Translations under genes and position numbers: made by a program | Notes under the pieces: generated by a model | Told to the model about the DNA's origin: nothing | Seen by the model: the letters and a program-made list of their open reading frames with translations, nothing else | Databases searched by the model: none | DNA from: an uncultured Pseudomonadota bacterium | Lineage (GTDB): Bacteria; Pseudomonadota; Alphaproteobacteria; RF32; CAG-239 | DNA length: 64,000 nucleotides | Reading direction: 5' to 3' | Assembly (NCBI GenBank): GCA_902788365.1 | Contig: CADAJN010000003.1 | Coordinates: 58,656-122,655, forward strand | In this document: positions 6,185-6,859 of the stretch, piece after piece | Layout of the letters: the number at the start of each line of letters is the position of its first letter | Position numbering within the stretch: the stretch's first letter is position 1

Positions 6185-6859
6185 ATGCAAAATAACCAAT
6201 GCGGTCGTTCCATGATTGAAATGCTCGGCGTTTTGGCAATCGTCGGTGTTTTATCTGTCGGCGGTTTATCAGGCTATAATCAGGCAATGAATCAATACCG
6301 AATCAATAAGACGCTCACGCAAATTACGGAAATATCGTCACGCCTGTCGGTTATTGGCGATCAAACATCTTCTTATGAAGGATTATCAAATGTTTCCGCA
6401 ATCAAAATGGGGGTTGCACCGAATGAGCTGATTTCCGGAAACGATCTGATTAACATTTATGGCGGCAATGTAACTATTCAAAATTCTAATTTAACAGCAA
6501 CTGATACCGATATGGCCTATGTGATTCAATATACCAACTTGCCGCAATCTGCCTGTATGACGCTGGCCACGCAAGATTGGCAAAAGGGCCGAAACAGTAA
6601 TATGATTGGTATAGGTGTCGGTTCCGGTGCAGATAAATTGAGTGATATTTCATCAAGTTTGTTTTTAAATTGCGAAGGCAAAATCACTAACGGAGAAGTA
6701 GTTGCCTGCCCGAACGGCTGCAAAGATTCTACCGGAGGGGTTGTTGCCTGCACAGGTTCTACGGCAACCAAACCGCTAATTCCACTTGATCCGTCATCAG
6801 CTGTTCAGGGGTGTTCATGTTCCGGTAATGCATGTGTATTTGTAATGAAATTGTTTTAA
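6185..6859 (+). CDS. Type IV pilin-like protein (prepilin N-terminal methylation motif), Cys-rich C-terminus
   Basis: Leader MQNNQCG followed by RSMIEMLGVLAIVGVLSVGGL (G-1, E+5). GGAG RBS. 18 bp downstream of ctrA. Paralogue at 32531-33232. Confidence 0.7.
   Translation: MQNNQCGRSMIEMLGVLAIVGVLSVGGLSGYNQAMNQYRINKTLTQITEISSRLSVIGDQTSSYEGLSNVSAIKMGVAPNELISGNDLINIYGGNVTIQNSNLTATDTDMAYVIQYTNLPQSACMTLATQDWQKGRNSNMIGIGVGSGADKLSDISSSLFLNCEGKITNGEVVACPNGCKDSTGGVVACTGSTATKPLIPLDPSSAVQGCSCSGNACVFVMKLF

What the first reader, a model, noticed from the sequence alone, without database searches (positions are those of the whole stretch)
6185..6859. Two paralogous Cys-rich pilin-like proteins; one is directly downstream of ctrA
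Both proteins (6185-6859 and 32531-33232) have short leaders ending in G followed by (R)S(M/T)(I/L)E(M/I)L and a hydrophobic helix. This is the prepilin peptidase motif with E at +5. Both share LP(Q/R)(S/E)AC(M/V)T(L/V)AT(Q/Y)DW and a C-terminal Cys-rich region. The first gene starts 18 bp after the ctrA stop with its own GGAG RBS. CtrA control of pilin genes is classic in Caulobacter, so physical linkage here is notable. ComEC is also present, so these could be competence-type pili.
Basis: partly seen in the sequence, partly recalled or inferred. Interest (0 to 1): 0.55.

Follow-up and report, generated by a model that had tools for sequence, protein, structure and literature searches.

The report
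Type IVb-like pilins, one ctrA-linked
Two genes here encode subunits of hair-like surface fibres (type IVb-class pilins) from a very large, unstudied family in gut and rumen Alphaproteobacteria, and one of them is kept as a two-gene unit with the cell-cycle master regulator ctrA in at least seven related genomes.

Summary
ORFs 6185-6859 (+) and 32531-33232 (-) are paralogues (29% identity, E 1e-30). Each has a 7-residue leader ending in Gly, Arg at +1, Glu at +5, a hydrophobic helix and a Cys-rich C-terminal domain. Both pass Pfam thresholds for the type IVb pilin families PilS and Bundlin. An AlphaFold model (pLDDT 85) matches only type IVb pilins (CofA, TcpA, PilS).

They belong to a huge family: at least 700 clusters at 50% identity, nearly all with GRSM[IV]E. 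Named genome records that carry it are almost all uncultured gut or rumen Alphaproteobacteria, with several copies per genome. Relatives carry an R64/BFP-like type IVb pilus cluster.

The ctrA-pilin pair, with a 13-27 nt spacer and no terminator, recurs in seven genomes. The pilin is only 40-64% identical there, against 91-95% for CtrA.

Not shown: assembly machinery or a prepilin peptidase in this genome. No peptidase was found near any copy. The competence-pilus idea is unsupported.

In passing: many paralogues elsewhere, and two other genes in this window, are preceded by a strongly covarying riboswitch-like leader RNA that matches no Rfam family.

The parts
5395..5410 (.). Perfect 16-bp palindrome GTTAATAATTATTAAC (TTAA-N6-TTAA) upstream of ctrA. 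It overlaps the predicted -35 hexamer and is a candidate operator of the ctrA-pilin unit.
   Evidence: Read from the sequence. Invariant in all five species aligned except one base in L011. Spacing is N6, not the canonical CtrA N7.
5406..5433 (+). Predicted sigma-70-type promoter (TTAACA, 16 nt, AATAAT) for ctrA and, by inference, pilin 1.
   Evidence: Consensus scan, 10 of 12 matches. This is a prediction only.
5481..6167 (+). ctrA, cell-cycle response regulator (228 aa).
   Evidence: NCBIfam CtrA equivalog 398.7 bits against cut-off 350. Pfam Response_reg plus Trans_reg_C.
6168..6184 (+). 17-nt ctrA-pilin spacer with Shine-Dalgarno GGAG (6172-6175). It has no room for a promoter or a terminator.
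   Evidence: Sequence. No terminator-like site lies between the genes. Spacers of 13-27 nt with an SD occur in six other genomes.
6185..6859 (+). Pilin 1, a type IVb-class prepilin. Leader M1-G7 is 6185-6205. The mature protein R8-F224 is 6206-6856, with Glu at +5, the alpha-1 helix and a globular domain holding 8 Cys.
   Evidence: Pfam PilS 52.5 and Bundlin 28.8 bits, both above threshold. PDB profile hits BfpA, TcpA and PilS. AF2 pLDDT 85.3. The top 16 Foldseek hits are all type IVb pilins.
6885..6910 (+). Terminator-like hairpin plus T-run after pilin 1, shared with the convergent ymdB gene. It is the likely end of the ctrA-pilin transcript.
   Evidence: Terminator scan: 9-bp stem with 6 GC pairs.
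32531..33232 (-). Pilin 2, a divergent paralogue (233 aa). Leader M1-G7 is 33232-33212. The mature part holds 6 Cys. It lies in the variable stretch between tRNA-Arg (30220-30296) and kdsB (33631-34437).
   Evidence: BLASTP against pilin 1, E 1e-30. Pfam PilS 42.5 and Bundlin 42.4 bits. Family HMM E 3e-68. Family pilins also lie between the ettA and kdsB blocks in L013 and beside the ettA block in L032.
33239..33242 (-). Shine-Dalgarno GGAG of pilin 2, 6 nt before the ATG at 33232.
   Evidence: Sequence.

Best explanation
Both genes encode structural subunits (prepilins) of a type IVb-class pilus.

Proposed mechanism:
1. The protein inserts in the inner membrane through its N-terminal hydrophobic helix.
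2. A prepilin peptidase removes the 7-residue leader after Gly7, so the mature protein starts with Arg and carries the filament-essential Glu at +5.
3. The periplasmic globular domain is locked by disulfides: the family-invariant Cys124 and Cys210 plus two or three further pairs.
4. A BfpD/PilQ-like ATPase with a PilR-like platform lifts subunits out of the membrane into a helical fibre.
5. The fibre leaves through a PilN-type secretin. A PilT-like second ATPase probably retracts it.

The genome holds several interchangeable, fast-evolving pilin genes at fixed chromosomal slots. Pilin 1 is the copy that is transcribed as the second gene of a ctrA-pilin bicistron, so its supply follows the ctrA promoter and therefore the cell cycle.

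Shown: pilin identity, the type IVb fold, family size, the machinery in relatives, and the conserved ctrA-pilin pair. Inferred: cleavage, assembly in this organism, co-transcription, and function (most likely adhesion or aggregation in the gut).
For: Family membership:
- Pfam PilS and Bundlin are above gathering score for both proteins.
- A family profile hits BfpA 1zwt (E 6e-16), TcpA 8uhf (4e-8) and PilS 1q5f (9e-7).
- IncI1 PilS aligns directly with family members (27.6% over 199 aa, E 1e-7).
- The AF2 model has pLDDT 85.3 and pTM 0.79, with a 53-residue N-terminal helix plus an alpha/beta domain. The top 16 Foldseek PDB hits are all type IVb pilins.

Conserved features:
- G7, R8, S9, E12, C124, W132 and C210 are invariant in a 30-sequence alignment.
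- Residues 8-35 are 93% conserved against 28% for residues 136-200.
- 125 of 139 new cluster representatives carry GRSM[IV]E. Among the 127 that contain GRS, even Cys counts in the mature part dominate (112 of 127).

Machinery in relatives:
- 13 loci carry the order orf485, TcpQ/PilL-like, secretin, PilO, PilP-like, T2SSE ATPase, T2SSF platform, family pilins, second ATPase.
- The secretin scores 281.7 bits on the type IVB PilN model. The second ATPase is closest to PilT/PilU.
- The gene order matches IncI1 pilL-N-O-P-Q-R-S.

The ctrA-pilin pair:
- It occurs in seven genomes. CtrA is 91-95% identical, YmdB 71-75% and the pilin 40-64%.
- In L101 the genes on both outer sides differ, yet the pair is intact.
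- No terminator lies between the genes and one follows the pilin.
Against: - No pilus assembly gene and no A24 prepilin peptidase lies in the window or within 10 kb of either end.
- No peptidase was found in about 1.4 Mb of pilin-flanking DNA from relatives, nor within 10 kb of the ATPase in the cluster.
- None of the 13 cluster-bearing loci comes from a genome shown to have the ctrA-linked arrangement.
- The leader is 7 residues, not the 15-30 that define classical type IVb pilins (PMC3927602).
- Arg at +1 is not a residue I know from any characterised pilin.
- The generic N-methylation models score just below threshold (16.5 against 21.2; 15.9 against 16.3).
- There is no canonical CtrA box (TTAA-N7-TTAA) at either pilin. 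Only one occurs in the window, against 6.2 expected.
- CtrA boxes are not enriched upstream of paralogues in relatives.
Confidence: 0.7

Rival explanations
1. These are orphan pilin-like proteins that are not built into a fibre in this organism. The lineage with the ctrA-linked copy would have lost, or never had, the type IVb machine. The proteins would act as membrane-anchored periplasmic or envelope proteins, or be exported in some other way.
For: No machinery lies in the window or 10 kb beyond it. No cluster-bearing locus comes from a genome shown to have the ctrA-pilin pair. Pilin-domain proteins without the Gly/Glu5 signal exist in relatives (L010:13571-14296, L030:9274-9870).
Against: Gly-1 and Glu+5 are invariant or nearly so, and the alpha-1 helix is nearly invariant, over hundreds of divergent sequences. 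That conservation is what filament assembly selects for. The C-terminal domain evolves fast, as expected for an exposed surface. The ATPase of the cluster is extremely widespread in the same kind of MAGs: 2268 homologues at E<=1e-100.
Confidence: 0.12
2. They are minor or accessory pilins (priming, tip or adhesin subunits), or pseudopilins of a secretion-type machine, rather than major fibre subunits.
For: There are several copies per genome outside the assembly cluster. The cluster has its own one to three pilin genes with a slightly different motif, GRSMVE.
Against: Scattered and in-cluster copies share the same architecture, length and N-terminus. Known type IVb minor pilins (PilV, TcpB, CofB) are much larger multi-domain proteins. 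No GspC/L/M-type secretion genes accompany the cluster.
Confidence: 0.1
3. They are competence (DNA-uptake) pilins working with ComEC.
For: ComEC is present at 14986-17037. A PilT-like ATPase in the relatives' cluster implies retraction, which DNA uptake needs.
Against: ComEC is 8 kb from pilin 1 and not linked to either pilin, and it is common in bacteria. The proteins match type IVb families, not ComGC or type IVa competence pilins. The ComGA and ComGB models score far below their cut-offs on the cluster ATPase and platform (133 against 300; 43 against 240). No ComEA or DprA link was seen.
Confidence: 0.04
4. The ctrA adjacency is only genome compaction. Pilin 1 would be expressed independently of ctrA and would not be cell-cycle controlled.
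For: There is no canonical CtrA box at the locus. In L051, where CtrA is 85% identical, the nearest family pilin is 4 kb from ctrA.
Against: The spacers are 13-27 nt with only an SD, leaving no room for a promoter. No terminator lies between the genes. The pair survives rearrangement of both flanks (L101) and divergence of the pilin to 40% identity.
Confidence: 0.1

Closest known systems
PilS, major pilin of the R64/IncI1 and Salmonella Typhi type IVb thin pilus, with its pilL-pilV operon
   Same: Same Pfam family (PF08805), with direct BLAST similarity (E 1e-7). The relatives' cluster has the same gene order L-N-O-P-Q-R-S, with a PilN-type lipoprotein secretin and PAP_PilO. Both have a non-Phe residue at +1 and Glu at +5.
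   Different: The IncI1 PilS leader is 23 residues against 7 here. The +1 residue is Trp against Arg. The R64 operon carries its own peptidase (PilU), a transglycosylase (PilT) and the shufflon adhesin PilV, none of which was found here. The R64 operon is plasmid-borne with a single pilin gene, whereas here there are many copies scattered among housekeeping genes. The cluster here has an extra PilT-like ATPase.
Bundlin BfpA and the bundle-forming pilus of enteropathogenic E. coli
   Same: It is the best solved-structure sequence match (1zwt, E 6e-16). Pfam Bundlin is above threshold. JGI labels the cluster ATPase bfpD. BFP also has a second, retraction ATPase (BfpF; my own knowledge).
   Different: BFP is plasmid-encoded in a pathogen, with one pilin gene, a long leader, Leu at +1 (my own knowledge) and a dedicated peptidase, BfpP.
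TcpA (Vibrio cholerae) and CofA (enterotoxigenic E. coli) type IVb pilins
   Same: They are the closest folds to the model: 9iuf, 3s0t and 8uhf, E 8e-7 to 1e-4, TM 0.5-0.66. The cluster has a TcpQ-domain protein.
   Different: Sequence identity is only 13-21%. They have long leaders and Met at +1. Their expression is under virulence regulators (ToxT), not a cell-cycle regulator.
CtrA-activated pilA of Caulobacter crescentus (Cpa/Tad pilus)
   Same: An alphaproteobacterial pilin whose expression is tied to CtrA (PMC11264516).
   Different: PilA is a small Flp/Tad-type pilin. It is transcribed from its own promoter with CtrA boxes and lies far from ctrA. Here the pilin is of the large type IVb class, sits in the ctrA transcription unit itself, and no canonical CtrA box was found.

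Membership tests
Type IVb pilin (Pfam PilS PF08805 / Bundlin PF05307) | Sequence matches the family models above their curated thresholds. | tested here: met
   Pilin 1: PilS 52.5 (threshold 22) and Bundlin 28.8 (22.3). Pilin 2: PilS 42.5 and Bundlin 42.4.
Type IVb pilin (Pfam PilS PF08805 / Bundlin PF05307) | Class III signal: Gly at -1, Glu at +5, followed by about 20 hydrophobic residues. | tested here: met
   G7|RSMIE in pilin 1 and G7|RSTLE in pilin 2. G, R, S and E are invariant in 30 sequences. 125 of 139 representatives carry GRSM[IV]E.
Type IVb pilin (Pfam PilS PF08805 / Bundlin PF05307) | Long leader peptide of about 15-30 residues (PMC3927602). | tested here: not met
   The leader is 7 residues in both window proteins and in all six ctrA-linked orthologues. 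That is the type IVa length.
Type IVb pilin (Pfam PilS PF08805 / Bundlin PF05307) | Mature length of about 180-200 aa or more (PMC3927602). | tested here: met
   217 and 226 residues after Gly7.
Type IVb pilin (Pfam PilS PF08805 / Bundlin PF05307) | Type IVb pilin fold. | tested here: met
   AF2 pLDDT 85.3. The top 16 Foldseek PDB matches are CofA, TcpA and PilS only, with nothing else below E 0.5.
Type IVb pilin (Pfam PilS PF08805 / Bundlin PF05307) | Disulfide that closes the C-terminal D-region. | tested here: inconclusive
   Cys124 and Cys210 are invariant and even Cys counts dominate. Bonding was not checked on coordinates.
Type IVb pilin (Pfam PilS PF08805 / Bundlin PF05307) | Cleavage (and N-methylation) by an A24 prepilin peptidase encoded in the genome. 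| not testable with these tools
   Only the window and 10 kb on each side are readable, and they hold none. None was found in relatives' loci by motif search or by tblastn with IncI1 PilU.
Type IVb pilin (Pfam PilS PF08805 / Bundlin PF05307) | Type IVb assembly genes: PilN-type secretin, PilO, PilP, assembly ATPase and platform. | tested here: inconclusive
   Present next to family pilins in 13 loci of related MAGs. Not seen for this genome or for any genome with the ctrA-linked copy.
Type IVa pilin / generic N-methyl prepilin (PF07963, TIGR02532) | Phe (or Met) at +1, a match to the N-methylation motif models, and a mature length near 150 aa. | tested here: not met
   The +1 residue is Arg. 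N_methyl scores 16.5 against 21.2 and TIGR02532 scores 15.9 against 16.3. The mature protein is 217 aa.
Flp/Tad (type IVc) pilin, the CtrA-controlled kind in Caulobacter | Small pilin with the Flp motif. | tested here: not met
   The proteins are 224 and 233 aa with a large globular domain. No Flp family hit appeared in the Pfam scan.
Competence pilus (ComG-type or type IVa Com) | ComGC-like pilin with a ComGA ATPase and ComGB platform. | tested here: not met
   There are no ComG family hits on the pilins. On the relatives' ATPase and platform, ComGA scores 133 against 300 and ComGB 43 against 240.
CtrA regulon member | CtrA box TTAA-N7-TTAA(C) in the promoter. | tested here: not met
   None lies upstream of ctrA-pilin 1 or pilin 2. 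The conserved palindrome has N6 spacing. Co-transcription with ctrA would still tie expression to the ctrA promoter.

The most novel reading that the evidence does not exclude
Uncultured gut and rumen Alphaproteobacteria would build a retractile type IVb pilus from a large repertoire of interchangeable pilins. These pilins form a distinct subclass with a short leader and an invariant Arg at +1, and they would be processed by an as yet unseen or atypical peptidase.

The repertoire would be wired in two ways. One copy is hard-wired into the ctrA operon, so that piliation is a direct read-out of the cell-cycle regulator. Many other copies sit behind a new riboswitch-like leader RNA that also controls lipoproteins and other surface proteins.
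Probability: 0.25. Interest if true: 0.7.

Novelty: new variant of a known kind. Interest (0 to 1): 0.5.

Why it matters
Type IVb pili are textbook virulence or conjugation organelles of a few enteric Gammaproteobacteria (PMC3927602). Here the same class of fibre appears as a core feature of common but uncultured commensal Alphaproteobacteria of human and ruminant guts, embedded among housekeeping genes and greatly diversified.

The proteins are annotated as 'hypothetical' or mislabelled. Placing them gives a concrete candidate for how these bacteria attach or aggregate.

The conserved ctrA-pilin bicistron makes a simple, testable link between the alphaproteobacterial cell cycle and surface fibres outside the Caulobacter model. 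The invariant Arg at +1 raises a clear biochemical question about peptidase specificity.

Tried and rejected
1. Looking for machinery in the same genome.
- Window ORFs were read and scanned. The contig was extended 10 kb at both ends. No pilus genes turned up.
- I tried to identify the species' own ATPase among homologues of the cluster ATPase. There are 2268 hits, and the top 120 are all 81% identical or more. None sits on a contig of a matching length. This was inconclusive.

2. Prepilin peptidase.
- I used a motif search, tblastn with IncI1 PilU, and a search for polytopic ORFs carrying a GxGD motif, all over about 1.4 Mb of relatives' DNA. Nothing was found.
- PilU's own motif lacks the Lys I searched for, so the motif searches are weak.

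3. A classical G|FTLAE prepilin in a close relative (L074) was used as a lead to a peptidase. It gave only two homologues with uninformative contexts.

4. CtrA boxes.
- There is one in the window, upstream of mraZ, against 6.2 expected.
- Five of 91 N7 sites lie within 300 nt upstream of paralogues in relatives, roughly the 2-3 expected by chance (my estimate) and similar to other spacings. I rejected this as evidence.

5. R64 by accession is not in the plasmid collection. An IncI1 plasmid was used instead.

6. The Methylorubrum AM1 megaplasmid holds the best plasmid match to the ATPase (39% identity). Its ORFs were too noisy at high GC to identify its pilin.

7. Literature searches for the motif, for RF32 plus pili, and for type IVb pilins in Alphaproteobacteria found no description of this family.

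8. The T2SS pseudopilin and Tad readings were rejected on family scores and gene content.
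Full report
OBSERVATION

- Pilin 1 (6185-6859, + strand, 224 aa) starts MQNNQCG|RSMIEMLGVLAIVGVLSVGG.
- Pilin 2 (32531-33232, - strand, 233 aa) starts MDKNETG|RSTLEILSILAIAILLTLG. Of its three in-frame ATGs, the one at 33232 has GGAG 6 nt upstream.
- The two proteins align over their whole length: 69/242 identical, E 1e-30. The alignment includes the block LP(Q/R)(S/E)AC(M/V)T(L/V)AT(Q/Y)DW. The mature parts hold 8 and 6 Cys.
- The ctrA stop ends at 6167 and the pilin ATG is at 6185. 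GGAG sits at 6172-6175.
- The upstream gene is a genuine ctrA: NCBIfam equivalog 398.7 bits against a cut-off of 350.
- The window is alphaproteobacterial, with 41% G+C. It also carries gcrA (Pfam GcrA, 129.7 bits), lpxI, rpoBC and comEC.
- A profile of the family finds only these two copies in the six-frame translation of the window.

WHAT THE PROTEINS ARE

- Both exceed the Pfam gathering scores of PilS and Bundlin, the two type IVb pilin families.
- A 72-sequence family profile hits bundlin BfpA (1zwt, E 6e-16), TcpA (8uhf, 4e-8) and Salmonella PilS (1q5f, 9e-7) among all PDB sequences.
- The PilS of an IncI1 plasmid aligns directly with family members (E 1e-7).
- An AlphaFold model of pilin 1 (pLDDT 85.3, pTM 0.79) has a 53-residue N-terminal helix and an alpha/beta head. 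Its 16 best Foldseek matches in the PDB are all type IVb pilins (CofA, TcpA, PilS), and the next hit has E 0.5.
- Two classical criteria do not fit. The leader is 7 residues, whereas type IVb leaders are about 15-30 and type IVa leaders are under 10 (PMC3927602). The +1 residue is Arg.
- The generic N-methylation motif models fall just below threshold.

THE FAMILY

- A word-indexed search returned 1367 relatives.
- An exhaustive profile search of 1.84 billion cluster representatives gave 9170 clusters at E<=1e-3, 5359 at <=1e-10 and 700 at <=1e-30.
- Of 139 new representatives, 125 carry GRSM[IV]E. Among the 127 that contain GRS, even Cys counts dominate in the mature part (112 of 127), as expected for a disulfide-bonded exported domain.
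- G7, R8, S9, E12, C124, W132 and C210 are invariant in a 30-sequence alignment.
- Residues 8-35 are 93% conserved, while residues 136-200 are 28% conserved. This is the usual pilin pattern of a buried helix and an exposed, fast-changing head.
Of the 80 loci kept, nearly all come from uncultured gut or rumen Alphaproteobacteria or 'proteobacterium' MAGs: CAG:495, RUG and RGIG rumen MAGs, and Hadza, Nepali and Brazilian human gut MAGs. The few records named otherwise (Ruminococcus gnavus, Bacteroidaceae, Lactobacillus) look mis-binned. Several copies occur per genome, at least 7-8 in two MAGs.
- NCBI calls the near-identical protein 'hypothetical' (MBR1904488.1). JGI calls it PilE.
- I found no paper on the family.

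MACHINERY

None of the scattered copies I looked at sits next to assembly genes. However, 13 of the loci carry a conserved cluster with this order:
1. a 485-572 aa protein of unknown function;
2. a TcpQ-domain protein that aligns with the C-terminus of PilL;
3. a secretin (type IVB PilN model 281.7 bits against a cut-off of 287.65);
4. PAP_PilO;
5. a protein with a PilP-like C-terminus;
6. a 560-aa T2SSE ATPase;
7. a T2SSF platform;
8. a pilin-domain protein without the cleavage motif;
9. one to three family pilins;
10. a 330-aa ATPase closest to PilT/PilU.

The order is that of IncI1 pilL-N-O-P-Q-R-S. JGI names the ATPase bfpD, and it has 2268 homologues at E<=1e-100. The family therefore has a matching type IVb machine in this group of bacteria.

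What I could not do is show the machine in this genome. The window and 10 kb beyond each end have none, and the rest of the 180-346 kb contig is out of reach.

No A24 prepilin peptidase was found anywhere: not within 10 kb of the ATPase in the cluster, and not in about 1.4 Mb of flanking DNA. These searches are not very sensitive. One classical G|FTLAE prepilin in a close relative (L074) hints that a peptidase exists in the lineage, but that lead gave nothing.

THE ctrA LINK

ctrA followed at 13-27 nt by a family pilin with its own SD occurs in:
- the window;
- L100 (CtrA 94.7% identical, pilin 64%);
- L101 (CtrA 93%, pilin 46%);
- L009-L012 (CtrA 91-93%, pilin 40-42%).

In most of these genomes ymdB converges on the pilin (71-75% identical). 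In L101 both outer neighbours are different genes, yet the pair is intact. All these pilins have 7-residue leaders.

No terminator-like site separates the genes. A hairpin with a T-run follows pilin 1 at 6885-6910.

Upstream of ctrA, a perfect palindrome GTTAATAATTATTAAC (5395-5410) overlaps the predicted -35 hexamer. It is conserved in all five species aligned apart from one base in L011. Its half-sites are TTAA but the spacing is N6, not the canonical N7, so I do not call it a CtrA box.

The only canonical box in the window is upstream of mraZ. Boxes are not enriched upstream of paralogues elsewhere.

The best reading is a ctrA-pilin bicistron. That ties pilin 1 to whatever drives ctrA. It is not a classical CtrA-box promoter like that of Caulobacter pilA (PMC11264516).

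PILIN 2 AND THE OTHER SLOTS

Pilin 2 lies between tRNA-Arg (30220-30296) and kdsB, after a run of small ORFs. One of these has a ribbon-helix-helix domain.

Family pilins also lie between the ettA and kdsB blocks in L013, and beside the ettA block in L032. ettA is 92-93% identical there, while the pilins are 38-40% identical to pilin 2.

Other recurrent slots are mraZ-cyclophilin (L014, L027) and just upstream of secDF (L005, L074). This genome has no pilin in the first of these slots.

MECHANISM, WITH STATUS OF EACH STEP

Shown:
- pilin identity and type IVb fold;
- the family-wide Gly-1, Arg+1 and Glu+5;
- a matching machine in relatives;
- the conserved ctrA-pilin pair.

Inferred:
- cleavage after Gly7;
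- disulfide bonding;
- assembly and retraction in this organism;
- co-transcription with ctrA;
- an adhesive or aggregative role in the gut.

The competence idea has no specific support.

A SIDE FINDING THAT BEARS ON REGULATION

Odd N-terminal extensions of mis-called homologues led to a 110-120 nt element directly upstream of many scattered paralogues.

Architecture:
- a three-way junction made of P1, P2 (with an inner hairpin) and P3, with conserved junction bases;
- an upstream hairpin, P0, that competes for the 5' strand of P1;
- an intrinsic terminator whose 5' arm shares 3 nt with the 3' strand of P1;
- a terminator T-run only about 30-60 nt before the start codon, which leaves no room for a separate promoter.

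Results with a covariance model of the element:
- In the pilin-centred loci it found 31 copies at E up to about 0.02, and 25 of them lie directly before a family pilin.
- On that set 95.0% of cells are paired and 24 of 27 pairs show double changes. There are 170 compensatory cells against 44 in shuffles (0 of 500 shuffles reach this), and slid controls give 30-44% paired.
- P1 was not part of the model structure, yet it is 96.4% paired. The P0-plus-full-terminator alternative is also supported.

An independent, motif-driven scan of metagenome contigs gave 57 further copies:
- 19 lie before family pilins;
- 36 lie before other genes, mostly lipoproteins, signal-peptide proteins, Cys-rich secreted proteins and XRE-type regulators;
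- 2 have too little downstream DNA to tell.
- The covariation is equally strong on this set.

Rfam 15 has no match, even at E 10.

The window has two divergent copies:
- 1036-1193 (- strand, 39.3 bits), before the unknown ORF 79-1032;
- 17552-17666 (- strand, 27.5 bits), before a 75-aa HTH protein.

Neither window pilin has a copy, nor do the ctrA-linked loci. So within this family the ctrA-linked copy appears to have exchanged a switch-like leader for a place in the ctrA operon.

VERDICT

The genes are new variants of a known kind. They have a type IVb pilin fold and family, but also a type IVa-length leader, an invariant Arg at +1, a very large paralogue repertoire in commensal Alphaproteobacteria, and one copy inside the ctrA transcription unit.

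The main gap is the unseen machinery and peptidase in this genome.

Noticed in passing
window 1036-1193 (-) and 17552-17666 (-). Seeds: L039:9829-9946, L016:6077-6194, L029:9859-9967, L085:9848-9967 and others. Independent set in L103-L182.: A riboswitch-like leader RNA of about 115 nt that matches no Rfam family.

Structure: a three-way junction (P1, P2 with inner hairpin P2a, P3), a competing upstream hairpin P0, and an intrinsic terminator that overlaps P1 by 3 nt.

Covariation is strong: 95% of cells paired, 24 of 27 and 23 of 28 pairs with compensatory changes, and 0 of 500 shuffles as high. There is no Rfam match.

It precedes 25 of 31 hits in pilin loci. In an unbiased metagenome sample of 57 copies it precedes 19 pilins and 36 other genes, mostly lipoprotein, secreted-protein or XRE genes, with 2 undetermined.

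The window copies precede an unknown 306-317 aa ORF (79-1032) and a 75-aa HTH gene (17292-17519). The ligand or factor is unknown.
   Followed up: yes
L098:1613-2786 (also L099): Two TrbC/VirB2-like (type IV secretion pilin) genes and a 1212-aa ORF lie divergently just upstream of the type IVb pilus cluster in a widespread gut alphaproteobacterium. This recalls the pairing of thin pilus and conjugation genes on IncI plasmids.
   Followed up: no
L074:13766-14146: A close relative of the window's organism (97% and 93.5% aa identity to window genes 60554-61672 and 58309-58635) has a classical prepilin, MRKNIG|FTLAEILIVIGVIGVV, right after rpsL-rpsG. It is the only canonical G|F-T-L-x-E signal in about 1.4 Mb of related DNA. 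Homologue search and context gave nothing further.
   Followed up: partly
L030:9274-9870; L010:13571-14296: Pilin-domain proteins (weak PilS/Bundlin hits) that keep the C-terminal Cys pattern but have a plain N-terminal membrane anchor, with no Gly cleavage site and no Glu5. One is a fixed member of the pilus cluster, located between the platform and the pilin. The other is an orphan next to a LexA-like repressor gene (identified by eye) in a genome with the ctrA-pilin pair.
   Followed up: no
window 33441-33666: Two tandem copies of a unit of about 105 bp (76-89% identical) fill the gap between the kdsB stop and pilin 2, and run into the 3' end of kdsB. Function is unknown. It is not the leader RNA.
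   Followed up: partly
window 42297-42311: The only canonical CtrA box (TTAAGTGGAAATTAA) in 64 kb lies about 150 nt upstream of mraZ and the division-gene cluster. The motif is under-represented: 1 found against 6.2 expected. A gcrA gene is at 48295-48726.
   Followed up: no
window 3614-4802, next to tRNA-Val 5186-5261: A GH108 phage-type lysozyme and a fragment resembling the phage Mu F protein sit between a MATE transporter gene and the tRNA upstream of ctrA. This is probably a prophage remnant at a tRNA site.
   Followed up: no
window 43775-46902: Three adjacent genes: an ATP-grasp (ATPgrasp_ST/RimK-like) protein, an inactive transglutaminase fused to a 7-TM domain, and a putative ATP-dependent Zn protease. 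The set is syntenic in L014 and L027.
   Followed up: no
L030, L055, L063, L064, L078, L098: about 100-115 nt upstream of the Gly codon at the leader cleavage site of the in-cluster pilin: A conserved block, TTTATGACTAAGGATAAGATTGTTCATAATTTATTAATTTGTTATAGTTAAAC, precedes the in-cluster pilin. It is probably an internal promoter or operator for the major pilin, and it is distinct both from the leader RNA and from the ctrA palindrome.
   Followed up: no
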